Shown here: positions 33,943-48,057 of the stretch, one piece after another
Layout of the letters: each line of letters opens with the position of its first letter
How positions within the stretch are numbered: position 1 is the stretch's first letter
NCBI GenBank assembly: GCA_910587405.1
Contig: CAJUKS010000003.1
Location: 125,268 to 189,267, forward strand
Reading direction: 5' to 3'
Length of the DNA: 64,000 bases
Source of the DNA: an uncultured Alphaproteobacteria bacterium
GTDB taxonomy: Bacteria; Pseudomonadota; Alphaproteobacteria; RF32; CAG-239
The notes under the pieces: model-generated
What the model was told of the DNA's origin: nothing
Seen by the model: only the letters and a program-made list of their open reading frames with translations
Database searches by the model: none
Made by a program: the position numbers and the translations under genes

Positions 33943-35961
33943 TTAAGGTTTGCGGGAACGCATCATTTTATATATCTGATAAATATACCAGGGAAACAGG
34001 AAATATGATTTGACAAAGTGTCCGCCGTTTAGAAGCAAACGTCCGCTGCGGCTGTGGTTGAACGAATTCAGAAGCTGCTTTAGAAAATGGCGGAGATAGC
34101 CGCAATTGACGACCTGTTTCATATTTTCGTAAGTTTTCGGGTCGAGTTGGATATGGTTCCGGAAGATCTTTTTTTGTTTTTTGAGTTGATGCCGCAAACT
34201 GTTATAGCAAAAACGGTTTTTGAAAACCGGATAATTTTGGAAAAGGGCGGCAACATGCTTCAAATAGCGCGCTGCAAGGACAGTTTTAAGTTCCTGATTG
34301 TTTTGTTTTTGATACAAGTTCCAGATGCCGTCGAGCAAACCGAAAACATTGCCGATCGTTTGCGGCAACCGGTTGCTGATTGCCGGTATAACAGGAGGAC
34401 GGCGATGATTGTAGAGCTGTTCTTTCAAAATGCCGCAGCGGTTGCTTGCGGGCAGAGATTGCAGATGGAAAAGTTCGTCTTCTCCTTGTTTGAGTTGTTG
34501 GTCAAAAGCAAGTTGTTGTTGTTCCAAAAAGCGCCGCCGATAAGCTTTGTTGCAAATTTCAACCGGCAGGGAAGTAAGGAAAGCAGGCGCTTCGTTTCCG
34601 TTATGAATGGAAAAAAACGGTAATTCCGTCGGAAAATTGTCATCAGGGGTGTCAAAGCTTGCAGCTGCCGGATTGTATAAACGTTGCCGAAAAGCCAGCA
34701 CGTCGAGCCGATGCCGCTGCATATAGAGGAAAACTTTTTCGACGGTGCGCGGTTCCGTCCAGTCGTTCGAATCGACAAACATGACATACTTGCCGCGGGC
34801 AAGGTCAAGTCCGGTGTTGCGGGCGGCGGAAAGACCGTCGCCGTTCTGCTCGGCAATACGGATTCGGGGACTGCGAGCAGCGTATTGTTGCAGAACTTGA
34901 AGATTGTCATCGGTTGAATCGTCACGGATGCAGATGATTTCAAAAATATCGGCAGTTTGGGCGAGCAGACTGTCCAGACAATCGTGCAGCCAAGAAACGT
35001 TATTATGAACCGGTACAATCACCGAAAGCGGAATTTCGGCTTCCGTCAGGTTGGAAATATTTTCCCGAAATTGTTCGGAAATGCCGGGAATGGTAAAATA
35101 GGACTTCATTTTTTGCCGGGCTTCTTTGTAATGGTCGGCGCCGCTTTTGAGCAGGGCTGCCGTCAGATTTTGGTTGAATACGTTTTCCAGCTGCGGCAGA
35201 TGTTGCGGCAGCCGATTGAAACGTTGCAGTTCGCGGGTTATGAGAACGTTGATGTCGATAATGTCAAGCGGTCGGGGTGAGTTTCTTTCGGTACCGGTAA
35301 TAGAGTGGGAATGAATACGGTAATTGTATAATTTGTCGGGCAGGTAAAAATAGCTTTGGCAATGAATGCCGTAAGCCCAGGCCCAGTATTCGTCTTCGTG
35401 GATCAGCCGTTGCTCGGGAAAGGAGAGGTTAAATTGTTTGATGATGCTGTTTTTGTGCAGTTTGCCGTTGACAACCACATGAATCTTTAACGGATTGTCG
35501 GCCAGCGGGCGGCATCCTTGCGGCGTTTTTTCGGTTTGATCAAAATACGCTTGTTTGTTTTTAGTTTCCTTTTGGTCGGCTTCGGTTTCGGGAAAGGGAA
35601 GAAAATCGGCGCAGGTTAAATCGGCGCCGGTGCGGCGGGCAGTGTCGAACAGTTTTTCCAAGGTGTCGGGCTCGATATAATCGTCAGAATCGATGAAAAA
35701 GATATATTCGGCCGTTGCTTGGGCGAGTCCGGCATTGCGGGCGGCAGAGAGGCCGCGGTTGGGCTGGCTGATGATGCGGATGCGGGAATCCAAAGCGGCA
35801 TATTGTTCCAAAATCTGCGGGCTGTCATCGGTTGAACCGTCGTTGATACAGATCATCTCGAAATTGCTGAAGCTTTGGCCGATGATGCTGTCCAGACATT
35901 GACGGAGATAATTTTGTACATTGTACACGGGGACAATAACGGAAATTTTCGGTGTGTGCAT
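33943..35961 (-). CDS. Tandem two-domain family 2 glycosyltransferase
   Basis: Two GT-A modules, each with VIVPVxN...DGSTDD...DSDD motifs (residues ~1-110 and ~320-420). Confidence 0.8.
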   Translation of the reverse strand: MHTPKISVIVPVYNVQNYLRQCLDSIIGQSFSNFEMICINDGSTDDSPQILEQYAALDSRIRIISQPNRGLSAARNAGLAQATAEYIFFIDSDDYIEPDTLEKLFDTARRTGADLTCADFLPFPETEADQKETKNKQAYFDQTEKTPQGCRPLADNPLKIHVVVNGKLHKNSIIKQFNLSFPEQRLIHEDEYWAWAYGIHCQSYFYLPDKLYNYRIHSHSITGTERNSPRPLDIIDINVLITRELQRFNRLPQHLPQLENVFNQNLTAALLKSGADHYKEARQKMKSYFTIPGISEQFRENISNLTEAEIPLSVIVPVHNNVSWLHDCLDSLLAQTADIFEIICIRDDSTDDNLQVLQQYAARSPRIRIAEQNGDGLSAARNTGLDLARGKYVMFVDSNDWTEPRTVEKVFLYMQRHRLDVLAFRQRLYNPAAASFDTPDDNFPTELPFFSIHNGNEAPAFLTSLPVEICNKAYRRRFLEQQQLAFDQQLKQGEDELFHLQSLPASNRCGILKEQLYNHRRPPVIPAISNRLPQTIGNVFGLLDGIWNLYQKQNNQELKTVLAARYLKHVAALFQNYPVFKNRFCYNSLRHQLKKQKKIFRNHIQLDPKTYENMKQVVNCGYLRHFLKQLLNSFNHSRSGRLLLNGGHFVKSYFLFPWYIYQIYKMMRSRKP

Positions 35962-36143
35962 AGTCGGGTCCTCAAAAAGAAGTGAAGCAAAATAATGACC
36001 GTTTTTTTTCTAACTAAAAGTTATAATCAAATATGTGCATTGTCAATTACTTAGTGGTTAGAAAAGATGCCGCAAAAAAACGGTGGTTAAATTTCATCAC
36101 TTTTTGCTGATTTAATATTTTTCGGACATTTTATGCGGTTGAG

Positions 36144-36173
36144 CTTGATTTTTGTTTTTCCCCCTTCTTATAT
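36144..36173 (+). promoter_or_regulatory. Possible RpoH (sigma32)-type heat-shock promoter CTTGAT...CCCC-CTTATAT upstream of clpB
   Basis: CTTG and C-rich CTTATAT -10 resemble alphaproteobacterial sigma32 consensus, spacer ~19 nt (longer than ideal). Confidence 0.25.
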
Positions 36174-36191
36174 TTAAAAATAAGGAGAGAA

Positions 36192-38774
36192 ATGATGAAT
36201 ATGGAAAAATTTACCACCCGGTCTCAAGAGTTGATCAAGAATGCGGTTGACCTTGCGGTGAGCCGGCGCCGCCAGTATGTTACGCCGCTCTATTTGTTGG
36301 CGGCGATGTTGGAAAGCCGCGACAATGTTATTGACAGCCTGATTGAAAAATCCGGCGGCAATTTAGAGGTGATCCGGCGTGAAGTTAACAATGAGCTGGA
36401 CAAGATCCCGGAAATTTCGGGTGCGGCGGTGCAAACCGTGATGTCGCAAGATTTCAGCGCTTTGTTGCTGGATGCCGAAAAAATTGCCGCTCAGGCCAAC
36501 GACAAATTTGTGACCGCGGAACGCCTGTTGCAAACGATGGCGACGATGGCCGGCAATCAGGCTCATGATATTTTGCAACATAACGGCGTTGACGCGGTTA
36601 AGCTTAACCGCGCGATCAGCGAATATCGCCAGGGAAGGCTCGCAGACAGCGAATCGGCCGAAGACAATTTTGAAGCTTTGAAGAAATACGCGATTGACAT
36701 TACCGGCAAAGCCAAAGAAGGCAAACTTGATCCGGTGATCGGACGGGAACATGAAATCCGCCGTACCATTCAGGTTTTGTCGCGACGAACCAAAAACAAT
36801 CCGGTACTGATCGGCGAACCGGGAGTCGGCAAAACGGCAATCGTCGAAGGCTTGGCAATGCGGATTGTCAACAACGATGTTCCCGAGAGTTTGCGCGGCA
36901 AGCGGCTGCTGGCGCTTGACATGGGCGCTCTGATTGCCGGCGCCAAATTTCGCGGCGAGTTTGAAGAACGTTTGAAAGCGGTGTTGAAAGACGTGGAGGC
37001 CTCTAACGGCGGCATTATTTTGTTTATTGACGAAATGCATACGATTGTCGGTGCCGGGGCGTCGGAAGGGTCGATGGACGCTTCCAATCTTTTAAAACCG
37101 GCGTTGGCTCGCGGTGAGCTTCATTGTTTGGGCGCCACCACGCTTTCCGAATATAAGAAATACGTTGAAAAGGATGCGGCGTTGGCACGGCGTTTTCAGC
37201 CGGTGTTTGTAACTGAGCCGACGGTTGAAGAAACAATTTCGATTCTGCGCGGGATCAAGGAAAAATTTGAACTGCATCACGGCGTGCGGATTTCCGATTC
37301 GGCCCTGATTGCCGCTTCTACCTTGTCCAACCGTTATATTACCGATCGGTTTTTGCCTGACAAGGCGATAGATCTGATGGATGAGGCCGCCAGCTCGCTC
37401 AGGATGGCAATCGACTCCAAACCGGAAGAGTTGGATAATCTTGACCGGCGGATTATGCAATTGAAAATTGAACGCGAAGCCTTGAAAAAAGAACATGACG
37501 AGCAGTCGAAAAAAAGGTTGGAAGAAATTGAAAAAGAGACCGCCGACTTGGAGGAAAAGGCCCGGAGTTTGAATGACAAATGGAAGGCCGAAAAACAGAG
37601 CCTGGCCGATTTGACCGATGTCAAAGACAAGTTGGACAAGGCAAAAATCGAAGCGGCGATCGCGCAGCGCAACGGTCAGTTTGAAAAGGCCGGAGAACTT
37701 CAATACGGCGTTATTCCGGATTTGGAAAAGAAAATGCAGGCGCTGGAAGATTTGGCCAAGGAAAGAAAAGGCCGGGCGGAAAAAGTGGTTACGGACGAGT
37801 CTATTGCCGAAGTGGTGTCGAAATGGACCGGGGTTCCGGTTGACAAGATGCTGGAGGGCGAAAAAGAAAAACTGTTGCGGATGGAAGATTATCTGGGCCA
37901 ACGAGTGGTCGGACAAAAAGACGCGATTCGTGCAGTTGCCAACGCCGTACGCCGTTCACGCGCCGGAATCGGCGATCATCGACAGCCGATCGGTTCGTTT
38001 CTGTTTCTGGGCCCGACCGGGGTCGGAAAAACCGAATTGAGCAAGGCGCTGGCGGAATTTTTGTTTAATGACGAGACGGCCCTGTTGCGGGTAGACATGT
38101 CCGAGTATATGGAAAAACATGCGGTTGCGCGTCTGATCGGTTCGCCTCCGGGATATGTCGGTTATGAAGAAGGCGGCGTTTTGACCGAGGCTGTGCGCCG
38201 GCGCCCCTATCAGGTGATTTTGTTTGACGAGGTAGAAAAGGCGCATCCGGATATCTTTAACGTGCTGTTGCAGGTTTTGGACGACGGACGGCTGACCGAC
38301 GGCAAAGGTCGTACGGTTGATTTTAAAAACACGATTATTATCATGACTTCCAACCTGGGGTCGGAAATTCTGGCACGCGCCGATGACAAGAGCGATTCGA
38401 AAGCGGTGAACGATGCGGTGATGGAGGTTGTGAAGGCGTCGTTCCGGCCCGAGTTTATTAACCGTATTGACGAGATCAGCATTTTTCAGCGGTTGAGCAA
38501 GGAAGATATCAAAGAAATTACCAAAATTCAGCTTGCCAACATCGAAAAACGGTTGGCGGAACGGAATATCAAACTGCATATCAGCGATGCCGCGGTCAAG
38601 TGGATTGCCGACAACGGTTATGATGAAGTTTACGGTGCGCGGCCCTTAAAACGCTTGCTTAAAAACCAAATTGAGAATAAACTCGCTTTTGCAATTTTGG
38701 ACGGGCGAATCGGCGAAAACGATACCGCGGAAATTGTGGTTAAGGATAATCAGTTAGAGATCGAAAAATCGTGA
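36192..38774 (+). CDS. clpB: ATP-dependent chaperone ClpB
   Basis: 860 aa; two AAA+ modules with Walker A GEPGVGKT / GPTGVGKT and middle coiled-coil. Confidence 0.95.
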
Positions 38775-39256
38775 TAGACAATAAATTTTTCAGGGTGGCG
38801 GTGGAGACGGCCGGCACCGAAGACGTGCGCAGCGCACCGGATACGGTGGTATTGTATTCGGTCAGTTATCAGCCGACGACCGCGAATAAAGACAAAGCGT
38901 TTGCTTTTATGAAAGATCATCCGCAAATGGTGATGATTGATGATACCGTTTGCGGAAAACGACTGATTGAGTTGGGTTTGGAATGGAGCACGCTTGATAA
39001 TGACCATGACCGGCAAAAAGCGGCGGAGATCTGGCGGCTGGCTTCCAGGCGTTTCATTGACGGTGCTTCCGGCAACGTGACCGCATTTGTGGACGGTGCC
39101 GATCCGCGCAGTGTTTTCTTGAGTGAAGAACTGCCGGCACTGCTGGCCAATCCGAAGATTTTAACCATCAACGGCATAGACAAGCATTTGTTTGCCGCGC
39201 GGTTTGACAGGTCGGAAAAAGAAACTGAAGCCCTACTGAAAACGGCAGATTTTTAG
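38771..39256 (+). CDS. Conserved hypothetical protein (161 aa), GTG start overlapping clpB stop
   Basis: Translationally coupled (GTGA overlap); no recognisable domain. Confidence 0.45.
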
Positions 39257-39282
39257 ACGAGTGGTCCGATTGTTTTTATAAC

Positions 39283-39313
39283 AAACCCCCGGTTTGACCG
39301 GGGGTTCCTTTTG
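39283..39313. terminator. Bidirectional hairpin terminator aacccccgg/ccgggggtt
   Basis: Perfect 9-bp stem between convergent genes. Confidence 0.5.
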
Positions 39314-39326
39314 TGCTTTATAAAAA

Positions 39327-40808
39327 TTAGTTTGCCTGAACGATTTTGCTCTGTGCGGTGTTGTCTGCCAACTGCTCGTTCTTCTTTTCGAGCGCTTTGG
39401 CAAACATTTGCTGGCGCGTTTCTTGGATTTGGGCAACCTGAACCTTGAATTGTTTGAGATTTTTGCCGCTCAGGTTTTCGGATGCGGAAGCGGTAACCGT
39501 CAGCGGATTGACTCTTTTGCCGTTGCGTACCACTTCGTAATGCAAATGCGGTCCGGTCGAACGGCCGGTGGAACCGACATATCCGATCAGTTGTCCCTGT
39601 TTGACGCGGACGCCGGGCCGAATTCCTTTGGCAAATTTCTGCATGTGACCGTATGCGGTGGAATATTCCGAATTGTGGCGAATTTTAATGTAATTGCCGT
39701 AGCCGCCGTTATACTTGGCCACCTGAACGACGCCGTCTCCGGCCGCATAGACCAGTGAGTTGCGCGGCGCCGCGTAATCAACGCCCCAATGAACCCGGTA
39801 GTCTTTGTAGATCGGATGGCGGCGGCGTCCGAACGGGGAAGAAATGCGTGCGTTTTGATAAGACATCGGTTTGCGGCTGAGCGTTTTTTTCATCGCAAAG
39901 CCTTTGGCGTCATAGTAATCGCTGTTGCCGGCGGCATCTTTAAAGCGATAAAGCGAAATTTTGTTTTTGCCGAGCGTCAGCGAAGCATATAAAATATTGC
40001 CGTTTTTGACGACTTCTCCGCCAGGTGTGATGTAATTTTGATAAATGATTTCAAACCGGTCGCCTTTTTTGATGTCACGGCGAAAATCGACGCTGTAGGA
40101 AAAGATGCTGATGAAGTTGGCCACGATGCGAGAGGGAACTTTTTGACGGTTCATCGAAACGGAAAGACTGCCGTCAACAATACCGGAAGCCGAGTTGACC
40201 TCTTCGATCAGTTCGTCTTTTTGCAGTTCGGCCTTGTATTTGCCGTTTTGGTCTTTTTCGATGACGATCCGTTCGCCGGTACGGATTTGCGAGGTAAGGG
40301 CATTAAGCGAAATCAGTTTGTTTTCGGGCAGGTTCCACAACAGACTGACCTGCAGTTTTTGTCCGGCCTTGATGTTGCGCGGATCGTAAACTTTTTTGGC
40401 GGCCAGATAAAGCTCGTTGGCTTCCTGATATTCCATTCCGAGGTCTGTCAGCAGATTGAGCAGGGTGTCTCCCGGTTTGACCGTGAGGGTATTTTCGCGG
40501 GTTTCTTCAACCGGTTCCGGTTCGGTAACCTCGGCTTCGGCGATGAAATCGTTGTCCGGTTCGCTGAATTCTTCGTTATAAATTTCGTTTTCAATCGCCT
40601 CTATCGGGGCGGAAGGTGCGAACGACGCATTGACTTCGGTATTGTGCATAACCAAAATAATGCCGAACAGGGCAATTGCGAAAGTGGTGCAAAAGGTCAT
40701 CCAGCACCGCTTGTTGGCAATGGTTGTTGCAATCTGTTTTTTGATCCAGTCTTTATGCAAAATAAAAAATCCTTTTTGTGTCGTCGTCGTAATTTTCCAG
40801 TGCGACAC
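39327..40808 (-). CDS. M23 family metallopeptidase with N-terminal TM segment and OapA/LysM-like domain
   Basis: C-terminal HxGxD...HLHYE M23 motifs. Confidence 0.8.
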   Translation of the reverse strand: MSHWKITTTTQKGFFILHKDWIKKQIATTIANKRCWMTFCTTFAIALFGIILVMHNTEVNASFAPSAPIEAIENEIYNEEFSEPDNDFIAEAEVTEPEPVEETRENTLTVKPGDTLLNLLTDLGMEYQEANELYLAAKKVYDPRNIKAGQKLQVSLLWNLPENKLISLNALTSQIRTGERIVIEKDQNGKYKAELQKDELIEEVNSASGIVDGSLSVSMNRQKVPSRIVANFISIFSYSVDFRRDIKKGDRFEIIYQNYITPGGEVVKNGNILYASLTLGKNKISLYRFKDAAGNSDYYDAKGFAMKKTLSRKPMSYQNARISSPFGRRRHPIYKDYRVHWGVDYAAPRNSLVYAAGDGVVQVAKYNGGYGNYIKIRHNSEYSTAYGHMQKFAKGIRPGVRVKQGQLIGYVGSTGRSTGPHLHYEVVRNGKRVNPLTVTASASENLSGKNLKQFKVQVAQIQETRQQMFAKALEKKNEQLADNTAQSKIVQAN

Positions 40809-40894
40809 TGTAGCATACGGGTAAAAAAATACCAGTGAAAAATTACCTTAATGTTAATTATGTCATTTTTTTTGATAAATCATAAAAAAAATAC

Positions 40895-40923
40895 TTGCAA
40901 TAAAAAAAAATGTTAGGTATAAG
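40895..40923 (+). promoter_or_regulatory. Sigma70-like promoter TTGCAA-N17-TATAAG for tRNA-Asp
   Basis: Hexamers and spacing close to consensus; tRNA begins ~18 bp downstream. Confidence 0.35.
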
Positions 40924-40940
40924 AGGAAACGAACTCGAAT

Positions 40941-41017
40941 GGGGGTGTAGCTCAGCTGGTTAGAGCGCCTGCCTGTCACGCAGGAGGTCGCGGGTTCGAG
41001 TCCCGTCACTCCCGCCA
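40941..41017 (+). tRNA. tRNA-Asp (anticodon GTC)
   Basis: Cloverleaf: acceptor GGGGGTG/CACTCCC, D-arm GCTCAGCTGGTTAGAGC, anticodon loop CTGTCAC, T-arm GCGGGTTCGAGTCCCGT, CCA encoded. Confidence 0.9.
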
Positions 41018-41055
41018 TTAAAAAGCCGTCCGCAAGGACGGTTTTTTTGTGGCTT
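40998..41055. repeat. Direct repeat copy 1 (58 bp): 3' end of tRNA-Asp plus its terminator
   Basis: Identical to 41254-41311. Confidence 0.8.
41021..41050 (+). terminator. Rho-independent terminator ccgtcc-gcaa-ggacgg + T7 after tRNA-Asp
   Basis: Perfect hairpin and TTTTTTT. Confidence 0.6.
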
Positions 41056-41253
41056 CAGGTGTGCGCACTCGAATCCGCGACCTGGTCGCGGGCTCGAGGA
41101 TAAAAACAGCCGCTGCTCCGGCTGTTTTTACCGCAAGAGGCGTAGTTTTGTCGGCTTTTTGAGGCGGCAAAACGCCGCTAAAAAGCATACAAAACAAGTG
41201 ACCGCAACGAAGTTATCGAACTTATGCAATAAGTGAGATTTACGCAGTAAGAC

Positions 41254-41311
41254 GAGTCCCGTCACTCCCGCCATTAAAAAGCCGTCCGCAAGGACGGTTT
41301 TTTTGTGGCTT
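41254..41311. repeat. Direct repeat copy 2 (58 bp): duplicated tRNA-Asp 3' end plus terminator (att-like)
   Basis: Perfect copy 256 bp downstream of copy 1; the spacer contains an inverted tRNA T-arm-like palindrome (41064-41100) and another hairpin (41103-41135). Confidence 0.8.
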
Positions 41312-41495
41312 GGTATGGGCGCACAATTAAAACACATCCGGGACGTTCTAACAATTACTGAAGCTGCTTTTGCATTTTTTGTTTTTTTTCGGTTAACCTT
41401 ACGGACAAAAAAAACTTCCGGAAGATCGGGTAAAACATTTGACCTTTTGTCTAAAATGTGTCATACTAATTACATATTTTATTAAAATAGTAATT

Positions 41496-42338
41496 ATGAA
41501 GAAAATTATCATCAGCTCATGCTTCGGTCATGAAATCATGGCAGTGGCGATCGCCAAGTCTATGAACCTTTCTGTCGTTATCGTTCCCAACAAGGACAAT
41601 GCCGACGAGTTTAACAAAGAAAGCGAAAACATCCTCGTCAAGATGCTTCCGTTCTACTCCGCGTTGGAAACCGTTTCTTTCGAGGAGAAGGAGACGGCAC
41701 TGGCTGAGGGATGGGATGTCGTTCGTGAACTGAAAGAGGGTCGTTTCGACGCTTCTCTGTGGTTCAAGATGGCATCCTCCAGGTTGACGCCTTCTTTCGA
41801 AGGACTCCGCCGCTATCGGCAGTTGGAGGACAGGTTTAATGTTCTCTTCGTGCCGCAAAAGCTGAAGAGCGACGGCGAGTGCGGTGTTACGGCTGCTCAG
41901 CAGTCTCTCAACCCGCAGGTTCTGGCTTTCATGAAAGGCCTTGCCAACCTGGTGCTGGGGCAACACTTTCACAAGGTTAACGATTTGGAAACAGTCGAAG
42001 CCTTGGCGAAAGAGTTTGATCTCTATGTACCGGGTCAGACCGAGAACCAGGAAGTGTTCGGAATTCGCGGCGTGGCTCATGCCGAGTATTTCAACATGTA
42101 CCGCAATCTTGACGCTTCGGTCGGAATCGCCGGTACGCACACCTGGATCATGCTCGCGCTCTTCCCGGAAATCCCGCAGATCATTCTGTTTAACAGAAAC
42201 GGCGTGGAAAACTGGAAAGACATCGAAGCAGCCTATCAGAAGGCGGGTTACCGCATTTTCTGTATCGGTTTCGATGAAAACAGCGACATGGGTGAACTGA
42301 GCAAGGAGATCGAAGAGACTTACAAGAAGCTCTTCTAA
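41496..42338 (+). CDS. Hypothetical GT-B-fold-like protein (distant heptosyl/glycosyltransferase-like C-terminal half), atypical codon usage
   Basis: C-terminal GQTE...ASVGIAGTHTWIMLALFPEIPQIILF resembles the GT9 donor-binding region; Phe TTC clearly preferred over TTT unlike neighbouring core genes. Confidence 0.45.
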   Translation: MKKIIISSCFGHEIMAVAIAKSMNLSVVIVPNKDNADEFNKESENILVKMLPFYSALETVSFEEKETALAEGWDVVRELKEGRFDASLWFKMASSRLTPSFEGLRRYRQLEDRFNVLFVPQKLKSDGECGVTAAQQSLNPQVLAFMKGLANLVLGQHFHKVNDLETVEALAKEFDLYVPGQTENQEVFGIRGVAHAEYFNMYRNLDASVGIAGTHTWIMLALFPEIPQIILFNRNGVENWKDIEAAYQKAGYRIFCIGFDENSDMGELSKEIEETYKKLF

Positions 42339-42518
42339 ATCTTCACCAACTAAGAAGAAAGAGTGCCGGGGAGAAACCGGTACTCTTTTTTCTTTTTAAA
42401 CCGCCGGCGGTTGCCCTTGTCAAAAAAGCGGTTTTCTGCTATGACGGAAGAAACGCCCGGTCTAAACGGGAAATGCCGTCAAGCGTACGGTAAACGGCGC
42501 GGGAAAAGGAGGGGAAAT

Positions 42519-43121
42519 ATGCTGGCAGAATTGATACGGCGGGCGCAGGATGAAAACGAAAGCGTTTGTGACGAAGTCTTTGAAGGCGAACTGCTGACGG
42601 ATGAAAATATGTCGCAGATCGAGTTTGAACGGGTGCGGTTTGTCAAATGCAGGTTTGAACACTGCAACTTTGATCATGCCGCTTTTTATCACGGCAAGTT
42701 TGTCAATTGTGATTTTTCAAATTGCAGCTTTGTCGGTAGTTATTGGAAAAAAATGGAGATCGCGGGCAGCAAGGGCAACGGCGCCCGTTTGAGTGAAGCT
42801 GTTTTTAAAGAGTGCCGAATTGAGGAAAGCTTGTTTGATTATGCCGACTTTTCCCAGTCGTCGTGGGAAGCCTGTGCGGTCGGCAACAGCAAATTCCGCG
42901 AGAGTTTTTGGACGGAAGTTAAGCTGAAGAAAGTCAATTTTCAGGCAGTGGATTTCTGCCGCAGCGATTTTTTCAAAACCCGGCTGGCCGGGATTGATTT
43001 TTCGGGATGTATCATTGACGGAATTCAGATTTCGACCGGATTCGCTGAGTTGCGGGGAATTAAAATCGGGCTTGAACAGGCGGTCAGTCTGGCCGGGCTG
43101 CTTGGAGCCGAGGTGGTTTGA
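42519..43121 (+). CDS. Pentapeptide-repeat protein (Qnr/MfpA-like size, ~200 aa)
   Basis: Strong RBS aaaaggagggg; tandem A(D/N)LxF-type pentapeptides throughout. Confidence 0.75.
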   Translation: MLAELIRRAQDENESVCDEVFEGELLTDENMSQIEFERVRFVKCRFEHCNFDHAAFYHGKFVNCDFSNCSFVGSYWKKMEIAGSKGNGARLSEAVFKECRIEESLFDYADFSQSSWEACAVGNSKFRESFWTEVKLKKVNFQAVDFCRSDFFKTRLAGIDFSGCIIDGIQISTGFAELRGIKIGLEQAVSLAGLLGAEVV

Positions 43122-43234
43122 AAAGCGGTGAATAAAAACTTTCGAGTCGGCCGGTAATAAATTTTGTTGCGGTTGCCGAGATTTCGTTTTAAAAATAAAG
43201 CGAAGAATTTTGAGGACAGAGGAATAACTGACGA

Positions 43235-43675
43235 ATGGCAGACAAACCGCAAAGCCGGGCAAAGAAAATTTTGTTGTGGGCGCTGACTTCCCCGGTGACG
43301 CTTATTTTCGGCGCCCTGATGCTCTATTACGGTATTCAGGCTTATGTGTTGGGCAACAGCCCGTGGCAAAACAAGATCATCATGGCCGCAATTGCGGCGG
43401 CATGGGTTTTGTGGCTGGTATTTAAAAACCTGATAAAATTTATCTTACTGGCGCTGATTGCAGGAGGACTGTTTTACGGTTATTACCGTTTTGAAAACCG
43501 GGAGGAAATAGCCTGTAAAGAGCAGGGGCGGGTATGGAACAAGGAAGAGCGTACCTGCGAAGACAAAACGGGGTGGAAAGAAAAACTGGAACAATTGTGG
43601 CAGCAGTATATCGGCTCCAAGGAAGAAAAAGCGACAGACAAACAAGAAACGCCTTCATCCGGCGCTTCCAAATAA
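43235..43675 (+). CDS. Small membrane protein (3 predicted TM helices) with Cys-containing charged tail
   Basis: Hydrophobic segments; no homologue recognised. Confidence 0.45.
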   Translation: MADKPQSRAKKILLWALTSPVTLIFGALMLYYGIQAYVLGNSPWQNKIIMAAIAAAWVLWLVFKNLIKFILLALIAGGLFYGYYRFENREEIACKEQGRVWNKEERTCEDKTGWKEKLEQLWQQYIGSKEEKATDKQETPSSGASK

Positions 43676-43737
43676 AAAGCTGGATTTTTGCCGCCCGCAC
43701 GTTATATTATACTCAGGCGATATGAAGGGAGACAAAA

Positions 43738-44106
43738 ATGAAACTGATGAGTAAACTGACGTCTTTGATGTCGGACACCGGCAATAAATGGTTTCGGCGC
43801 GGGCGCGAGCCCCTGATCAGTGCCAAGGCCGCCAAAAAAATTCAGCAATCGGCGAGCGAACGCGGTTCTCGGTGTGCGGATGATACTTCAACCCCTCCCT
43901 ATCTGACGATTATTCCTCAGCTGAATGATAAGAATGAACAGATTTTTAAAGCGGCGGTTCTGAATTTGTATAAAATTGCGGTAGAGATGAAGGAATATCG
44001 TTCTGACATTTTGCAAGCCTTGTCTCATCAGGCGGAATCCCGGCGGGCAGAGACGGAGAGCGGCCGCTGGCTGCATGAAAAAATCGAACGTTTGCGCCAA
44101 TTGTGA
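43738..44106 (+). CDS. Hypothetical small basic protein (122 aa)
   Basis: ORF with terminator hairpin downstream. Confidence 0.4.
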   Translation: MKLMSKLTSLMSDTGNKWFRRGREPLISAKAAKKIQQSASERGSRCADDTSTPPYLTIIPQLNDKNEQIFKAAVLNLYKIAVEMKEYRSDILQALSHQAESRRAETESGRWLHEKIERLRQL

Positions 44107-44127
44107 TCATCTTTTTTTAATCTGTAA

Positions 44128-44153
44128 ATCTCCGGCTTCGGCCGGATTTTTTT
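44128..44153 (+). terminator. Rho-independent terminator tccggc-ttcg-gccgga + T-run
   Basis: GC hairpin followed by TTTTTTT. Confidence 0.5.
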
Positions 44154-44392
44154 ATTTGACATGCCGTAAAAAATTTGAGGCACAGACAAAAAAACGGCTA
44201 TGAGACATTGCTCTTAACAGTTTGAATTTAATCGGTTTTATCTTCTTAGGATTTGCGGCAAAAAAACGTACATTTAAATGACAGGAAAAATTTCTTCGCT
44301 GAACCTTGATTTTTGGTCTTGATTTCTGCAGCAAAATAACGTACAATATTTTCAATCACCTGAAACAATCAAGGTAATAAAGGGGAAGGGTT

Positions 44393-46420
44393 ATGAAAAT
44401 ATCGGGTAAAATTTGGGCGGTGTGCATGCTGCTGGTGTGCGGCTGCCTTTGGAGTGCCGGCAACGTATCGGCCAAGGTCTGTTTCGTCGGCGATTCCGAT
44501 TGTGCCGGCGGTGCCGACTTCGGGGACGGATATACCGACGACAGTGAGGATCTTTGTAAAGACGTCAAGGATGCCAACGGTAAATTGATGTATCAAAAAG
44601 CGCCGTGTCCGGCCAAGAGCCATGTTTCGGCAGTTTGTCCTTATAATGCCGCTTATGTGCAGTGTTGCGGCGATTCGTATGCTTATTCGACCTGCCCGTA
44701 TCCTTTGGAGAGCGTGGGACGCTGCGGCAACAGTTATAAATGCGCCTGTCCCAAAGAGAAGTTTCCTTATGCTTCCTGTCTCTCACCGACGATTCCCGGA
44801 GGCATCAATTGTCTGCAAATTGACGATGACAGCAAGACAACCAGTATTCATTATGAAAAATGCGTCTGTGATCCCGGTCTTTATCCCTATAAACAAAACA
44901 GCGACTGCGACGATAATCAGATTGTCGATCCCAAACGTACCTGTACCGATACCGACGGCGGCACTTTCTACTATCGCTGCAAATGTCCGGACAGCTGGAG
45001 TACCTGCGCCAGTATGGACGGGCAGGGGGCAATCGGCGCCAGGAAATGTTACAGCGACGGCAACACTTACCACAGTCAGTGTTGCGAATGCCCTTCGCCG
45101 TTTGAACGTTCGATGAACGATCCCTATGCAACCGATTACGAATATTGTCCCTGCAACAATAATTTCCGCAAGGCTTCGGGATGTAAGTTCGGTTACAAGG
45201 TTGATAACGGCCGTTGTATTGAAATGACCTGCGGTGATGCCCTGAAAGCTTTATTTGACAGCAGCAGCGCTTACGCGTCATATGGTTTGTACACCGGGAA
45301 CGCTCTGAGCCAGAAGACTCTGATTGTCGGTGATGACGTGTCTTCGGCCAGCTGGTCTCATTTTGCGGGTAAAACCGTGATGTCCGGTGCCGCCTTTGTC
45401 AGAAAGCTGAACGGCAGCAACAATTATATTAAGAATGTTCAGGAAAAATGTACCAACAGCATTCCGACGATTCAGTTTACATACAGTAGTTCCAATATTA
45501 CCGGAACTCAAAACTTTACTTCGGTCATTTTGAAGTATACTTCAAGCTTGTGGAACAAAGGGTCGTTTACCTGTACCAACTGCGGTATCGAATTCTGGAA
45601 GCTGTACAATACGGATAGCGGCGCCACGGTTAATCTGGCCTACAATTCAAATATGCCGAATGTCGACAATATGTATGTTAATGCAACCGGTATTGAAATT
45701 TCCAAGCCCTATCGTTCGGTCGGTTATAATTATCAGGTCGGCAGTTTGGGGACCAAAATTACCAACTACGGCGGCAACGGCGCGCATGTGATTATGTTTG
45801 AAGGCAAAAGCAACTCCAACCGTATGGCCTTTAACGGCGACTATCTGACGGTTAACGGTTTGGCGGCAATGAAATATGCCAACGTTCGGGTCGGACAGAC
45901 CTGTATCGGTACCAACTGTTCGTACGGAAGTTCTTCCGGAGTTTATTTCAATCCGGGTGACGTATGCAATACCAGCAGCACGTTGTCTTTATACTATACC
46001 AACTACTATCTGTACGAAGCCGGAACGGTAAGGACGGTTCATATGTCGACTTCCACCATGTTGGGTAAAGAAAACGACGGTACGGTATCGATTGTTTTCA
46101 GTGATGCCAGCTACAATACCCTGACTTTCTCCCAGTTGTGGAAATATTGCAGCAAACGCCCGGGCTGTGCGTATCGTTACATTACTTCCTACGGTTCGGT
46201 CAGCAGTCGTACGATGGATTGCGGGTATTATTCGCAGTCGGTTCGTGACGGCGAAAAGCACTCCAAACCCGACGATGCCCGTTGCAAGATCGACGGTAAC
46301 AATAACCAGTATGGTTTTGCTCAGGCAAGTTCGGCCGGATGTAACTGGCGCGACGGTGACGGCTCTGACCGTACGCCTTATTTCCAGCTGAACGGTCAGC
46401 GCGGATGGTCGCGAAACTGA
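44393..46420 (+). CDS. Secreted cysteine-rich protein (675 aa): signal peptide, ~260-aa N-terminal domain with ~34 Cys, then Asn/Ser/Thr/Tyr/Gly-rich beta-type C-terminal domain
   Basis: RBS aaaggggaaggg; Cys patterns CxCP, CCxC, CKCP repeated; no known bacterial family recognised. Confidence 0.7.
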   Translation: MKISGKIWAVCMLLVCGCLWSAGNVSAKVCFVGDSDCAGGADFGDGYTDDSEDLCKDVKDANGKLMYQKAPCPAKSHVSAVCPYNAAYVQCCGDSYAYSTCPYPLESVGRCGNSYKCACPKEKFPYASCLSPTIPGGINCLQIDDDSKTTSIHYEKCVCDPGLYPYKQNSDCDDNQIVDPKRTCTDTDGGTFYYRCKCPDSWSTCASMDGQGAIGARKCYSDGNTYHSQCCECPSPFERSMNDPYATDYEYCPCNNNFRKASGCKFGYKVDNGRCIEMTCGDALKALFDSSSAYASYGLYTGNALSQKTLIVGDDVSSASWSHFAGKTVMSGAAFVRKLNGSNNYIKNVQEKCTNSIPTIQFTYSSSNITGTQNFTSVILKYTSSLWNKGSFTCTNCGIEFWKLYNTDSGATVNLAYNSNMPNVDNMYVNATGIEISKPYRSVGYNYQVGSLGTKITNYGGNGAHVIMFEGKSNSNRMAFNGDYLTVNGLAAMKYANVRVGQTCIGTNCSYGSSSGVYFNPGDVCNTSSTLSLYYTNYYLYEAGTVRTVHMSTSTMLGKENDGTVSIVFSDASYNTLTFSQLWKYCSKRPGCAYRYITSYGSVSSRTMDCGYYSQSVRDGEKHSKPDDARCKIDGNNNQYGFAQASSAGCNWRDGDGSDRTPYFQLNGQRGWSRN

Positions 46421-46426
46421 TAATCT

Positions 46427-46528
46427 CCCCCGCCCGGGTCTGTTGATGAGACAGATGACACAATCCCCTTTAAGGGCGGGGCCCTTGATACGGGAAGGGA
46501 AGAAAAACGAATTGATGTTTTTCTTCCC
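46427..46528. other. Structured non-coding segment: long-range stem ccccgccc/gggcgggg and perfect 11-bp hairpin gggaagaaaaa-N10-tttttcttccc
   Basis: Lies in a 390-bp non-coding gap between two accessory genes; no T-run so not a canonical terminator. Confidence 0.25.
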
Positions 46529-46809
46529 GCACTCCCGAACCTGAAACAAGCTTAAGGGGAAACGGTCTACCGGACCTTAAACGGAAACCTTTTATACCAA
46601 ATTATTATCTACAACTATTTCCGTTTTATTATTCAAGGAGAGAATACAGACCCGCGTTTCCCGGACAATCCAGAAACGGCTCCCTGTGGTTCCTTATCAT
46701 AACGGTCGGTTGTACGATCCTGTTTCGACATCCCCGTCTCAAGCTCAGGCTTCCGACGATCAAATATTTCCGAAAACAGATTTAAACAACAATTAAAACC
46801 ATTTGTATT

Positions 46810-48057
46810 ATGAAAACTAACAAATTCTGGTTCGCAACGGCAGCAGCTGCCCTTGTAACCGTTATCTGCGTGTTCACCTCCTGCAGCAAGGAAGACGAGC
46901 CTTTCCTGCCAGAAGTGATCGAAAGTGAAGTTCTTGAAACCGGCATCAGCAATGACGTCAACGAGGTTTCCGGAACCGAAGGTACCAAACTGAGCTACGA
47001 ATCCTGGATTGTGGTCAAGGGACAAACCCGCGCCGCTTTCGAGAACAAAGTCTCCGTTACTCTCTGCAATCAGTTGAACAATCTTGAGACGGAAATTGAC
47101 GTTAAAGAGTTCAATTTCGGTCAGGTCAGGACCAGTATTACCTATGGTGTCGGCGACGGCAGCCGAACGGACGGATTTGTTCAAATTGCGGATTCTGTCA
47201 TGTTTTATAACGTGGAATATGACAATTTCTCATTTGCATTTGAACTTCCCTTCGAAGTGGCTGTTTACAACGACAAAGTGACCCGGCAGACGATGCCTTA
47301 TCATCGTTACGGAAACATTGTCGACAAGGGCAGCAGCGTTAAAGATCTGGAGATCGAAGTCGAAGATATCGGCAAATGGCAGAACGTCCGTGTGCGTAAA
47401 CTCTACCAACATGACATCTCGGTGGACTTTAACGGCAAAAGCTACGACCTCACGGCAAAGATTATCTTGAAAAAGACTTTGCAGACCAACGGTGAAAATA
47501 CGGTGTTGAAATGTGAACTGATTGATTCCGGAACAGAAGTTTTGCTCAACGAAGAGAGCAGCACCATGTACAAATCATGGATTAAGGTAAAACAGACGAT
47601 GCTCAACGGCAGTACGCGCGAACAAACCTATACGGTTGACGACATGTACGGATCTTTGGATCACGAACTGTTGGACTTTAAGAAGCTTCAGGACAAAAAC
47701 ATTATGCAACAAAACGCTTCGGTTATCGATGTTGACGACGTCGTCATCTCGGCCGGCGATGTTGTTTATGTGCATAAAGTCGAGCGCAGTTATGTTGTCG
47801 ATTACAACTATTTTTCGTTAAACTTCAAACTGCTGCACAACGAAGCCTACTATGATGACGGCATTACGACAATCAAATTCCCGTCCTTTAAGCACGAGAA
47901 TTTTGCGGACGAAGGCAAGTTAACCTTTGTCGGTGACTTTGTCGACGGTGGTTTTGAGTTTTCCGAATATTGGTTTGCTCATACGATTACGGCTGATTTC
48001 GGTTCGGTGAAACATACCGGATTACGTGATTTTCAGGTGATTACGCCCAAGCAATAA
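46810..48057 (+). CDS. Lipoprotein of unknown function (415 aa), atypical codon usage
   Basis: Signal peptide plus lipobox VFTSC; TTC/ACC/TCC/AAG/GAG-biased codons unlike core genes. Confidence 0.6.
   Translation: MKTNKFWFATAAAALVTVICVFTSCSKEDEPFLPEVIESEVLETGISNDVNEVSGTEGTKLSYESWIVVKGQTRAAFENKVSVTLCNQLNNLETEIDVKEFNFGQVRTSITYGVGDGSRTDGFVQIADSVMFYNVEYDNFSFAFELPFEVAVYNDKVTRQTMPYHRYGNIVDKGSSVKDLEIEVEDIGKWQNVRVRKLYQHDISVDFNGKSYDLTAKIILKKTLQTNGENTVLKCELIDSGTEVLLNEESSTMYKSWIKVKQTMLNGSTREQTYTVDDMYGSLDHELLDFKKLQDKNIMQQNASVIDVDDVVISAGDVVYVHKVERSYVVDYNYFSLNFKLLHNEAYYDDGITTIKFPSFKHENFADEGKLTFVGDFVDGGFEFSEYWFAHTITADFGSVKHTGLRDFQVITPKQ

What the first reader, a model, noticed from the sequence alone, without database searches (positions are those of the whole stretch)
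40998..41311. tRNA-Asp followed by a perfect 58-bp duplicate of its 3' end plus terminator, enclosing a palindromic tRNA T-arm-like fragment
The last 20 nt of tRNA-Asp plus its hairpin terminator (40998-41055) recur exactly at 41254-41311. This is the classic att-site signature of integrase-mediated insertion at a tRNA. The repeats are only 256 bp apart and no integrase is present. The spacer carries a near-perfect palindrome ctcgaatccgcgacc/ggtcgcgggctcgag (41064-41100) resembling an inverted tRNA T-arm, and a second hairpin (41103-41135). The region therefore looks like the decayed scar of a mobile element, a tRNA-derived miniature element, or a tandem duplication. Immediately downstream begins a block of accessory genes.
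Basis: partly seen in the sequence, partly recalled or inferred. Interest (0 to 1): 0.6.

Follow-up and report, generated by a model that had tools for sequence, protein, structure and literature searches.

The report
Structured RNA module nested beside tRNA-Asp
The repeat after tRNA-Asp is not a dead integration scar: it frames an intact 160-nt module that folds like a structured RNA and belongs to an uncatalogued, apparently mobile family lodged in partial copies of at least 13 different tRNA genes in uncultured gut bacteria, always beside an intact copy.

Summary
Window 40997-41055 recurs exactly at 41253-41311 (59 nt). It covers the tRNA-Asp 3' end plus its terminator.

The spacer is not decayed DNA. 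It holds three parts:
- an inverted copy of the tRNA 3' half (41056-41083);
- a 9-nt direct copy of the T-stem (41084-41092);
- a 160-nt module (41093-41252).

The module is conserved at this locus in related MAG species. Its core recurs 111 times in 97 stretches of sequence. Where a neighbour was visible (72 of 97), it was a co-oriented intact tRNA (Asp, Asn, Glu, Met, Gly, Trp, Phe, Val, Ser, Arg, Ala, Pro). The module follows a GG inside a partial copy of that neighbour, with mirror-image flanks depending on the side.

Covariation supports an RNA fold: 33 pairs, 95% of cells paired versus 41-49% in slid controls. No Rfam family matches. No protein is linked. Module lineages cut across tRNA identity, so the module moves.

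Best reading (confidence 0.6): a non-autonomous, RNA-structured mobile element riding tRNA transcription units. The enzyme and the origin of the fold-back duplication are unknown. The downstream genes are syntenic core, not an accessory island.

The parts
40941..41017 (+). Intact tRNA-Asp(GTC), CCA encoded
   Evidence: ARAGORN; Rfam tRNA 72.5 bits, E 6e-15. The same gene follows the M23-peptidase gene in 23 related loci.
40997..41055 (+). Direct repeat copy 1: tRNA positions 57-77, trailer, terminator and GTGGCTT
   Evidence: Exact 59-nt match to 41253-41311; 93% over 72 nt.
41026..41048 (+). Intrinsic terminator of tRNA-Asp: CCGTCC-GCAA-GGACGG plus T7. Its loop is the axis of a long imperfect palindrome.
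   Evidence: Stem found by the terminator scan, listed on the minus strand; the A-run and T-run make it two-way. Palindrome extension read: observed GGACGGTTTTTTTGTGGCTTCAGGTGTGCGC-ACTCGAATCCGCGACCTG against the expected reverse complement of tRNA 45-76 plus trailer.
41056..41083 (.). Inverted copy of the tRNA-Asp 3' half (fold-back piece). The T-arm part 41067-41083 is well kept; the acceptor part 41056-41066 is degenerate.
   Evidence: Inverted repeat I1, 17 nt, 94%, with 40985-41001; local alignment gives rc(45-61). The same piece occurs at T-type loci of other tRNAs. It is also present without the module in L013, L018, L020 and L025.
41084..41092 (+). Short arm: direct copy of tRNA positions 46-54 (GGTCGCGGG), ending in the GGG that precedes the module
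   Evidence: Direct repeat D3; alignment (46-54). Of 74 non-internal family copies, 72 end in G and 55 in GG at this point.
41093..41252 (+). Structured module, CUCGAGGAU...GUAAGA, 160 nt. P1 = 41093-41095 with 41137-41139. P2 = hairpin 41101-41130 extended to GG/CC. P3 = about 41140-41205. Conserved strand GUGACCG. Variable 3' hairpins.
   Evidence: Covariance model R1 hit 41090-41208, 95 bits, E 9e-23; the only copy in the window. Covariation on 45 non-redundant copies. Whole unit folds with z = -7.3. No Rfam family.
41253..41311 (+). Direct repeat copy 2 (long arm): tRNA positions 57-77, trailer and second terminator (stem 41282-41297, T-run 41298-41304). Continues in degenerate form to 41324.
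   Evidence: In strain L120 the repeat is identical through ...CAGGTGTGCGCAC, about 72 nt.

Best explanation
The 256-bp unit is one copy of an uncatalogued family of small (about 145-180 nt) modules that fold as structured RNA and behave as non-autonomous mobile elements. They live inside tRNA transcription units of uncultured gut Alphaproteobacteria-like bacteria.

Shown:
- The module sits after a GG inside a partial copy of the neighbouring tRNA, replacing 2-3 nt. The sites are D-loop position 19/20, anticodon loop position 37, T-stem position 53 or position 64.
- It is always co-oriented with the tRNA and always next to an intact copy.
- The flank away from the intact gene runs out through the leader or trailer. 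This is the long direct repeat.
- The flank facing the intact gene is 9-17 nt long and turns back into an inverted copy. The tRNA segment therefore occurs forward, inverted, then forward again, and the last forward copy carries the module.
- Base pairing is conserved with many compensatory changes and an almost invariant G.U pair.
- Module lineages do not follow tRNA identity.

Inferred:
- The module is transcribed with the tRNA. In T-type loci such as this one that would be by read-through of terminator 1. In D-loop and anticodon-loop loci it would be from the duplicated leader.
- It is moved in trans, as DNA or through an RNA intermediate, by a factor encoded elsewhere.
- Because hitting a tRNA gene would be harmful, only events that also duplicate the hit segment survive. 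The forward-inverted-forward pattern suggests fold-back template switching during insertion or repair.
- Afterwards the repeats homogenise by gene conversion. They also mediate loss, leaving the inverted piece as a solo scar, and tandem expansion (arrays of 2-3 modules, period 158).
For: - Anatomy in the window.
- Orthologous locus: the module is present at tRNA-Asp in species whose M23 peptidase is 44-98% identical (window, L001, L004, L006, L007, L010, L012, L014, L015, L023). It is absent in L003, L008 and L011. The inverted piece alone is present in L013, L018, L020 and L025. Tandem copies occur in L006 and L007.
- Family: the core pattern gives 88 metagenome stretches and 111 copies in all. 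72 of 97 sources have a tRNA within 600 nt, all co-oriented. The tRNA start lies 167-201 nt before the core in the regular T-type loci, or 106-181 nt after it.
- Mirror-image flanks.
- Structure: 33 pairs, 95.0% of cells paired against 41-49% when partners are slid. 16 pairs (155 cells) change on both sides, against 4-8 pairs (7-28 cells). Covariation score 0.304 against about 0.03. 0 of 500 shuffles reach the observed values. The G.U pair is kept in 43 of 45 copies. The variable base of the 5' CKC covaries with the base in GCAAG-M-GG (GC 23, UA 17, AU 2, GU 1).
- Mobility: nearest-neighbour modules 90-98% identical sit at different tRNAs and different sub-sites. Examples: Glu T-arm with Ala D-loop 91%; Asp T-arm with Pro anticodon loop 92%; Ala with Ser 91%; Asp with Asn 90%.
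- Repeats are perfect or near perfect at several independent loci: 59/59, 75/75, 84/86, 78/81.
- No linked protein family beyond tRNA-Asp-locus synteny.
- Fixed and identical in 7 more assemblies of this species.
Against: - No transcript data, so RNA status rests on covariation and the G.U pair only.
- No promoter-like site lies between terminator 1 and the module. Expression here needs read-through.
- No mobilising enzyme, circular junction or same-species empty/occupied polymorphism was seen.
- In this species the module is fixed, and it is old at this locus. That pattern also fits a host-useful RNA.
- Similarity of modules across tRNAs could partly reflect gene conversion between copies rather than transposition.
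- No known transposition chemistry gives the forward-inverted-forward flanks. That step is an analogy, not a demonstration.
- Sampling used one exact 20-base core pattern, so diverged relatives and other contexts are under-sampled. Examples already seen: type-2 copies in L115-L117, a copy inside a MuF-like gene, and L090 after a protein gene.
Confidence: 0.6

Rival explanations
1. A host-beneficial small RNA gene family rather than a selfish element. The module would be a structured RNA, for example a regulator or processing cofactor, expressed from tRNA operons. Its tRNA-derived flanks would provide processing or stabilising stems, such as a closing stem and a tRNA-like 3' end with CCA. Paralogues would arise by local duplication and occasional recombination between conserved tRNA segments.
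For: - Strong purifying selection on pairing.
- Fixed in all sampled strains of this species and retained at the orthologous locus across deep divergence.
- The minimum-free-energy fold of the whole unit closes the module with an acceptor-like stem and leaves GCCA free.
- Always co-oriented with the tRNA.
Against: - Absent from close relatives at the same locus, with no module detected on the sequence held for those loci (L003, L008, L011).
- Copy number varies from 1 to 3 between strains of one species group.
- Internal tandem copies lack the 5' strand of P1.
- The acceptor-like closing stem is degenerate in the window and not conserved (L004 and L007 have unrelated sequence there).
- The flank architecture is mirror-imaged between sub-sites, which is hard to explain by one RNA function.
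- One copy interrupts a phage-type gene.
Confidence: 0.17
2. A gene-less derivative of an IS200/IS605 or IS607-type element (a PATE). Its conserved fold would be the guide-RNA scaffold (omega or reRNA) of a TnpB-like nuclease encoded elsewhere. The tRNA sequence 3' of the module would act as guide, and the GG on the 5' side as part of the target-adjacent motif.
For: - Suitable size, no terminal inverted repeats, no fixed short target duplication, and a strand-specific conserved RNA fold.
- Insertion next to a short motif (GG).
- In T-type loci the module is followed by 20 nt of tRNA and then a terminator.
- Tandem copies occur.
- From established knowledge, not tested here: PATEs keep the TnpB 3' end and right end, and IS607 inserts at GG.
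Against: - No match to the Rfam IS605-orfB or HEARO families, or to any other, at E <= 1.
- None of about 90 loci shows the module at the end of a tnpB, tnpA or serine-recombinase gene.
- The bases between GG and the putative target differ between sub-sites (TT, AG, A/AG), so no single adjacent motif fits.
- In D-loop and anticodon-loop loci the 3' flank is only 10-14 nt and is sequestered in a hairpin with its own inverted copy.
- A guide matching the intact neighbouring tRNA would be self-targeting.
- This model does not explain the partial tRNA duplications.
Confidence: 0.08
3. One reading: a minimal integrative element that carries only an attachment region. A tyrosine or Xer-type recombinase encoded elsewhere moves it in and out of the tRNA gene as a small circle, with crossover inside the repeated tRNA 3' end (CIME- or IMEX-like).
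For: - The direct repeat of the tRNA 3' end begins in the T-loop, a classic integrase sub-site.
- Solo scars and tandem accretion are as expected for repeat-mediated excision and re-integration.
- There is no recombinase in cis, as in Xer-exploiting elements.
- A fold-back pair of inverted sites at one junction recalls the integrated single-stranded CTXphi attachment region. This is an analogy from general knowledge.
Against: - A circle carrying one tRNA's sequence can only re-enter that tRNA, yet the same module lineage occurs at many tRNAs with flanks re-made from each target.
- 5'-side duplications at Ala and Pro are not what tRNA-targeting integrases produce.
- Repeat length is not fixed, ranging from 25 to 86 nt.
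- Nothing in the module varies with the target.
- 256 bp is very small for a double-stranded circle.
Confidence: 0.08
4. A very small self-splicing or otherwise excised intron that invaded tRNA genes and a phage gene.
For: - A structured RNA lies inside gene sequences.
- One copy splits a MuF-like gene at a conserved motif (…IPP | module | HPGEDYNCRC…), and the downstream frame stays open for 248-266 codons in two diverged versions.
- The 5' flank-proximal CKC pairs with an internal segment, loosely like an exon-guide pairing.
Against: - 0 of 111 copies lies in a full-length tRNA. Joining the flanks never restores a tRNA unless one deletes through to the neighbouring intact gene.
- 2-3 target nucleotides are missing at the junctions.
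- No Rfam group I or II intron match.
- CKC covaries with the module, not with the target.
- In L043 and L089 the left exon is partly deleted.
Confidence: 0.02
5. A simple local tandem duplication of the terminator region with junk between the copies, of no wider meaning.
For: The two repeat copies are identical and close together.
Against: The sequence between them is conserved, covarying and present at dozens of other tRNA loci.
Confidence: 0.01

Closest known systems
tRNA-targeting integrative elements (genomic islands, prophages, tycheposons; tyrosine integrases using the T-loop or anticodon loop)
   Same: The insertion lies inside a tRNA gene sequence. The gene is kept intact by a duplicated tRNA segment that forms a direct repeat. 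The T-loop sub-site is used. Scars and tandem arrangements occur at the locus.
   Different: There is no integrase and no cargo; the unit is only 157-260 bp. The duplicated part can be the 5' end. Repeat length is variable. An inverted copy of the tRNA segment is always present. One module lineage uses many tRNAs and four sub-sites.
MITEs and PATEs (non-autonomous derivatives of insertion sequences, including IS200/IS605 right ends that encode TnpB guide-RNA scaffolds)
   Same: Small, multi-copy and protein-less. Lineage-specific subfamilies that move within genomes. Like PATEs, a conserved strand-specific fold, with no terminal inverted repeats.
   Different: No parent element was found. No fixed target duplication. 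The target range is almost only tRNA genes. The flanks are re-made from the target as a forward-inverted-forward triplication. No Rfam omega-RNA-type match.
Bacterial group I introns in tRNA genes
   Same: A structured RNA interrupts tRNA sequence and is co-transcribed with it.
   Different: The module is never in a complete tRNA and does not restore one when removed. It is far smaller than group I introns (this module 160 nt; about 200 nt or more from general knowledge). It has no intron core motifs and no Rfam hit.
Integration of folded single-stranded DNA by host recombinases (CTXphi and other Xer-exploiting elements) and fold-back template-switch rearrangements (inverted triplications)
   Same: No recombinase in cis. 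Inverted copies of the target sit at one junction. Tandem arrays occur. The target segment shows a forward-inverted-forward order.
   Different: This is an analogy only. The target is a tRNA gene, not dif. The scale is tens of bases. No enzyme or intermediate has been identified.
RNAs with tRNA-like ends (tmRNA, bacterial Y RNAs, viral tRNA-like structures)
   Same: In T-type copies the RNA would end in a T-stem strand, an acceptor strand and CCA. It can close an acceptor-like stem with the inverted piece.
   Different: ARAGORN finds no tmRNA. The acceptor-like stem is not conserved. D-loop and anticodon-loop copies have no such 3' end. The tRNA identity changes with the neighbour.

Membership tests
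Integrase-mediated att duplication at a tRNA (island or prophage scar) | Direct repeat made of the 3' part of the tRNA gene | tested here: met
   59-nt exact repeat starting at tRNA position 57.
Integrase-mediated att duplication at a tRNA (island or prophage scar) | Tyrosine or serine integrase gene, or its remnant, between or next to the repeats | tested here: not met
   Only 197 bp lie between the repeats. No integrase domain in ten ORFs from 33943 to 48057. No recurrent recombinase near about 90 family loci.
Integrase-mediated att duplication at a tRNA (island or prophage scar) | The element restores the 3' end of the tRNA, so the duplicated part is always the 3' side | tested here: not met
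   At Ala (D-loop) and Pro (anticodon loop) loci of the same family, the 5' part plus leader is duplicated and the intact gene lies downstream.
MITE | Terminal inverted repeats shared by all copies | tested here: not met
   The module ends CKCGAGGAU... and ...GCAAGA are not inverted repeats. The only inverted sequences at the borders derive from the tRNA and change with the target.
MITE | Short target-site duplication of fixed length | tested here: not met
   Repeats are 25-86 nt or absent; 2-3 target bases are lost.
IS200/IS605 PATE or TnpB guide-RNA scaffold | Sequence and structure match to described omega or reRNA families | tested here: not met
   No Rfam 15 hit to the module at E <= 1 in the window or in 10 diverse loci.
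IS200/IS605 PATE or TnpB guide-RNA scaffold | Full-length relatives with the same end next to tnpB or tnpA | tested here: inconclusive
   None among the loci fetched. However, only stretches with one exact core pattern were sampled, and whole genomes could not be scanned.
IS200/IS605 PATE or TnpB guide-RNA scaffold | Insertion 3' of one fixed 4-5-nt motif, with no loss of target bases | tested here: not met
   Only GG or G is shared, in 72 of 74 copies. The bases before it vary, and 2-3 nt are lost.
IS110-type bridge or seek RNA | Internal loops whose sequence changes with the target | tested here: not met
   Modules at different tRNAs are 90-98% identical over all loops, for example L014 at Asp and L029 at Asn.
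Group I intron in a tRNA gene | Sits in a complete tRNA gene, and removal restores it | tested here: not met
   0 of 111 copies.
Group I intron in a tRNA gene | Match to the intron core model | tested here: not met
   No Rfam hit.
tmRNA, including two-piece forms | Detected as tmRNA with a tag reading frame; one per genome | tested here: not met
   ARAGORN finds none in the window. The element occurs at many tRNAs.
Structured non-coding RNA (generic) | Base pairs kept through compensatory changes, above controls | tested here: met
   95.0% paired against 41-49% slid; 155 against 7-28 double-change cells; 0 of 500 shuffles reach the observed values.
Structured non-coding RNA (generic) | The RNA is actually made from this strand | not testable with these tools
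   No transcript data. Indirect support only: an invariant G.U pair (43 of 45) and constant co-orientation with the tRNA.
Mobile element (generic) | Presence or absence at orthologous sites, and the same lineage at non-orthologous sites | tested here: met
   Empty sites L003, L008, L011 against occupied sites. Module similarity cuts across tRNA identity.
Mobile element (generic) | Insertion polymorphism within one species, or a detected transposition intermediate | tested here: not met
   All 7 extra assemblies of this species carry the same single copy. No circle junction could be searched for.

The most novel reading that the evidence does not exclude
The module is the RNA core of a new kind of mobile element. 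On this reading it has no protein of its own and no terminal repeats. It enters tRNA genes at GG sites in any of three loops or arms. It is propagated together with a target-templated forward-inverted-forward rebuild of the hit tRNA segment. It might even catalyse part of its own movement as a ribozyme through an RNA or circular intermediate; the head-to-tail 158-nt arrays would then be a trace of that.
Probability: 0.3. Interest if true: 0.9.

Novelty: new variant of a known kind. Interest (0 to 1): 0.8.

Why it matters
- It would add a widespread structured RNA family, absent from Rfam 15, in gut-associated Alphaproteobacteria-like bacteria known only from metagenome-assembled genomes.
- It would be an insertion style not described for bacterial elements as far as I could find: nesting in tRNA genes at several sub-sites while leaving an intact gene, with a signature of long direct repeat plus fold-back.
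- Practically, the element explains why many MAG contigs break at tRNA loci.
- It warns that a tRNA-end repeat is not by itself evidence of an integrase-borne island, and that a perfect repeat does not date an event.
- If the module RNA has enzymatic or guide activity, it is a compact (about 120-nt core) new RNA to test.

Tried and rejected
- Rfam at permissive thresholds, on the window region and on 10 diverse loci: only tRNA, plus sub-threshold chance hits (RNAI, SpF25) driven by the terminator.
- E. coli genomes, plasmids and phage records: only tRNA-level matches, or 40-nt matches to a sub-hairpin in two unannotated fecal 'Bacteriophage sp.' contigs. IMG/VR: 0 hits for the core and 1 contig for relatives.
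- Clustering of 762 ORFs within 4 kb of modules, looking for a linked enzyme: only tRNA-Asp-locus synteny.
- Intron test by in-silico splicing of 55,989 junction combinations: nothing beyond trivial deletion through to the intact gene.
- Bridge-RNA idea: no target-dependent loops.
- TnpB-guide idea: no consistent adjacent motif, and the guide would target the cell's own tRNA.
- tRNA-like aminoacylatable RNA: the acceptor-like stem is not conserved.
- Small ORF in the module: not conserved between copies.
- Promoter scans at chance level. I therefore claim no promoter; the tRNA-Asp promoter TTGCAA-17-TATAAG (40895-40923) is read by eye only.
- Apparent length difference in strain L118: it is an N-gap inside the repeat.
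- Five literature searches found no description of such an element. One possibly relevant 2026 preprint could not be opened.
Full report
**1. Observation**

ARAGORN and Rfam place tRNA-Asp(GTC) at 40941-41017 on the + strand, with CCA encoded. The repeat finder gives an exact 59-nt direct repeat, 40997-41055 = 41253-41311, with spacing 256. It extends at 93% identity to 72 nt. The repeat comprises tRNA positions 57-77 of the 77-nt gene, the trailer, a terminator (CCGTCC-GCAA-GGACGG plus T7) and GTGGCTT.

Both arms derive from the tRNA:
- 41067-41083 is the reverse complement of the T-arm (16 of 17).
- 41084-41098 is a direct copy of it (14 of 15).

Read on from the terminator loop, the whole stretch 41042-41083 is a decayed reverse complement of trailer, CCA, acceptor strand and T-arm. 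The tRNA 3' half and this piece therefore form one long imperfect palindrome, with the terminator loop as its axis (read). The second hairpin (41101-41112 / 41119-41130) is perfect.

**2. The orthologous locus elsewhere**

The M23-peptidase gene upstream (39327-40808, minus strand) retrieved 26 loci. Their record titles call them uncultured Alphaproteobacteria or 'Azospirillum sp.' MAGs, at 38-98% protein identity. A tRNA-Asp follows the gene in 23 of them.

Downstream of that tRNA, ten lineages carry the same roughly 155-160-nt sequence as window 41093-41252. It runs GGG|C(U/G)CGAGGAUAAAAAC...GUUUUUACCGCAAG.GGCG.AGUUUUG...AACAAGUGACCG...GCAAGA|, followed by that species' own tRNA 3' end.
- L006 and L007 have two head-to-tail copies, periods 162 and 158.
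- L003, L008 and L011 have neither module nor inverted piece. In L008 and L011 the tRNA terminator is followed directly by the homologue of window gene 41496-42338.
- L013, L018, L020 and L025 keep only the inverted tRNA piece after the terminator, a solo scar.
- A covariance model finds no module in any of these empty loci, and exactly one in the window (41090-41208, 95 bits, E 9e-23).

Seven more assemblies of the window's own species, including a 1.78-Mb contig, carry the identical single unit. One apparent size difference is an N-gap inside the repeat. The structure is therefore real and fixed in this species.

The window and L001 are collinear on both sides (36072-41312 at 94%; 41433-46659 at 91-93%). 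The downstream genes are therefore core synteny, not an island. Only 41313-41432 has no counterpart.

**3. The family**

One scan of metagenome contigs with a 20-base core pattern gave 88 stretches. With the loci above this makes 111 copies, 86 of them distinct and about 50 clusters at 90% identity. IMG/VR gave none.

In 72 of 97 sources a tRNA lies within 600 nt, and every one is co-oriented with the module. In most of the other 25 the contig ends close to the module. Spacing is regular.
- tRNA start 167-201 nt upstream of the core in the regular T-type loci: Asp, Asn, Glu, Met, Gly, Trp, Phe, Val, Ser, Arg, Ala-CGC.
- tRNA start 106-181 nt downstream of the core: Ala-CGC/GGC/UGC and Pro-UGG/GGG.

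Local alignment of the flanks to the neighbouring tRNA shows one rule with mirror-image outcomes.
- T-type, as in the window: intact tRNA, terminator, reverse complement of about positions 44-72, direct copy of 46-54, module, direct copy of 56/57-76 plus trailer and terminator.
- Asn: direct 48-64, module, 65-74.
- Ala, D-loop: leader plus 1-19/20, module, 23-34, inverted piece, leader, intact tRNA.
- Pro, anticodon loop: leader plus 1-37, module, about 40-53, inverted piece, intact tRNA.

The module thus follows G or GG (72 and 55 of 74 non-internal copies) and replaces 2-3 target bases. The long arm runs outwards and forms the direct repeat of 25-86 nt. That repeat is perfect or nearly so in the window (59/59), L059 (75/75), L060 (84/86) and L105 (78/81). 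The short arm folds back.

In the best-preserved loci the repeat also includes the inverted piece. The order of the tRNA segment is then forward, inverted, forward-with-module.

**4. Structure**

RNAalifold on 32 copies predicts three helices, with 14 pairs changed on both sides. I then drew a structure by hand on 45 non-redundant copies, 33 pairs in all.

| Measure | Observed | Partners slid by 1-3 columns |
|---|---|---|
| Cells paired | 95.0% | 41-49% |
| Pairs changed on both sides | 16 | 4-8 |
| Cells changed on both sides | 155 | 7-28 |
| Covariation score | 0.304 | about 0.03 |

No shuffle out of 500 reaches any observed value. Caveat: I drew the structure on these same sequences.

The variable base in the 5' CKC pairs with the variable base in GCAAG-M-GG (GC 23, UA 17, AU 2, GU 1). 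The CKC therefore belongs to the module, not to the target.

One G.U pair is kept in 43 of 45 copies. With the constant co-orientation, this points to an RNA made from the tRNA strand. That remains an inference. The whole unit 41056-41311 folds with z = -7.3. In that fold the inverted piece pairs with the short arm plus CUCGAG, an alternative to P1, and an acceptor-like stem closes the unit.

The model also detects a second type (GCUAAGCAAAAA...UUUUUGUCUGCAA...) in two fecal phage-labelled contigs and one IMG/VR contig. In the IMG/VR contig it is again nested in the D-loop of a partial tRNA-Ala upstream of the intact gene.

**5. Movement**

Module similarity does not follow tRNA identity or sub-site.

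| Pair of module sites | Identity |
|---|---|
| Glu T-arm and Ala D-loop | 91% |
| Asp T-arm and Pro anticodon loop | 92% |
| Ala T-arm and Ser T-arm | 91% |
| Asp T-arm and Asn (position 64) | 90% |
| Window's best match (another Asp copy) | 78% |

Because the flanks always match the local tRNA, the module moves and the flanks are re-made from each target. Alternatively, copies exchange their cores by conversion.

Copy number varies from 1 to 3 among closely related contigs. The two repeat copies in L001 share three substitutions relative to both copies in the window. The repeats therefore evolve in concert, and a perfect repeat is not a clock.

The module also occurs outside tRNAs. One copy splits a MuF-like phage gene at ...IPP | HPGEDYNCRC..., with the downstream frame open for 248-266 codons. 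Another follows a protein gene's terminator.

**6. What it is not**

- No Rfam 15 family matches.
- No integrase, transposase or any other protein recurs next to it.
- It is not an intron of a working tRNA: none of 111 copies lies in a complete tRNA.
- It has no terminal inverted repeats and no fixed target duplication, so it is not a MITE.
- It has no target-dependent loops, so it is not a bridge RNA.
- As a TnpB-type guide scaffold it fails on three counts. No parent element was found. No single adjacent motif fits. The guide would target the cell's own intact tRNA. I could not scan whole genomes, so this last family is not excluded.

**7. How it most likely works (confidence 0.6 for the overall reading, much less for each step)**

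Shown: a conserved, covarying module; nesting after GG in partial tRNA copies; co-orientation; mirror-image flanks; cross-tRNA lineages; empty sites, scars and arrays.

Inferred:
- The module is a selfish, non-autonomous element expressed as part of tRNA transcripts.
- A factor encoded elsewhere, or an RNA intermediate, moves it.
- Because an insertion into a tRNA gene would be costly, the events that persist are those in which the hit segment was also duplicated. The forward-inverted-forward order, with one turning point at the terminator hairpin, is what fold-back template switching would leave.
- The repeats later drive conversion, deletion and tandem expansion.

I know of no described bacterial element with this signature, and five literature searches found none.

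The main rival, at 0.17, is a host-useful small RNA family whose tRNA-derived stems serve processing.

**8.

A mobile-element insertion at a tRNA is the right frame, and 'tRNA-derived miniature element' is the nearest of its options. However:
- the spacer is a living module, not a scar;
- the signature is not that of an integrase;
- the downstream genes are not accessory.

**9. Limits**

- The genome and metagenome scans were capped at one each, and sampling depended on one exact pattern.
- There are no expression data.
- Host taxonomy rests on record titles.
- E-values from the home-made model are rough.

Noticed in passing
L066 about 2080-2200, L106, L086 about 4020-4130, L068/L113; also L069/L109 upstream of the module (module-oriented coordinates): A second conserved-looking domain (..GCCGGUC-hairpin-GAUGAGCGCAGUGAA..GCGAAGCGAAAUAAUC) lies between the module and the tRNA 3' fragment at tRNA-Gly and tRNA-Asn loci. 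It also occurs on its own joined to a tRNA-Met-like 3' end. It may be a further module type with the same nesting habit.
   Followed up: no
L050 about 215-390; L043 about 1500-1675; L089 about 155-330: The module interrupts a MuF-like phage gene between ...GKIFNRHIPP and HPGEDYNCRCWAEPY.... The downstream frame stays open for 248-266 codons in two diverged versions. In L043 and L089 the left flank has lost 18 codons of the motif.
   Followed up: partly
L115 515-621 (MT835910.1), L116 1639-1757 (MT838567.1), L117 11050-11168 (IMGVR_UViG_3300006146_000164): Distant 'type-2' relatives of the module (model E 1e-6 to 1e-11) share the distal P3 hairpin UAAUGAGCAAGG.AAGCG..AGC.ACCGCGGCGAAUUUA. The L117 copy is nested in a partial tRNA-Ala D-loop upstream of the intact gene. 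The other two have no tRNA nearby.
   Followed up: partly
window 41313-41432: The 120 nt just after repeat copy 2 have no counterpart in L001, although both sides are 91-94% identical. The stretch starts with a degenerate copy of the inverted piece (GGTATGGGCGCAC) and holds a further hairpin with A and T runs.
   Followed up: no
L002, L004, L005, L010, L012, L017, L125; L118 3660-3760: Many MAG contigs end, or carry an N-gap, exactly at this tRNA-Asp and module locus. The repeat breaks short-read assemblies.
   Followed up: partly
window 44260-44352: This stretch matches L001 in both orientations. That suggests an inverted repeat of about 90 nt just upstream of the 675-aa ORF 44393-46420, which has no Pfam match.
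   Followed up: no
window 43124-43135 versus L001: L001 carries about 730 bp that the window lacks at this point, between the pentapeptide-repeat gene and the 146-aa ORF.
   Followed up: no
window 41496-42338, 43235-43675, 43738-44106, 44393-46420, 46810-48057: This is a run of conserved syntenic genes with no Pfam family. The first (280 aa, MKKIIISSCFGHEIMAVA...) always follows tRNA-Asp in this clade.
   Followed up: no
window 21987-22072: tRNA-Leu(CAA) on the minus strand has no module or partial duplicate next to it.
   Followed up: yes
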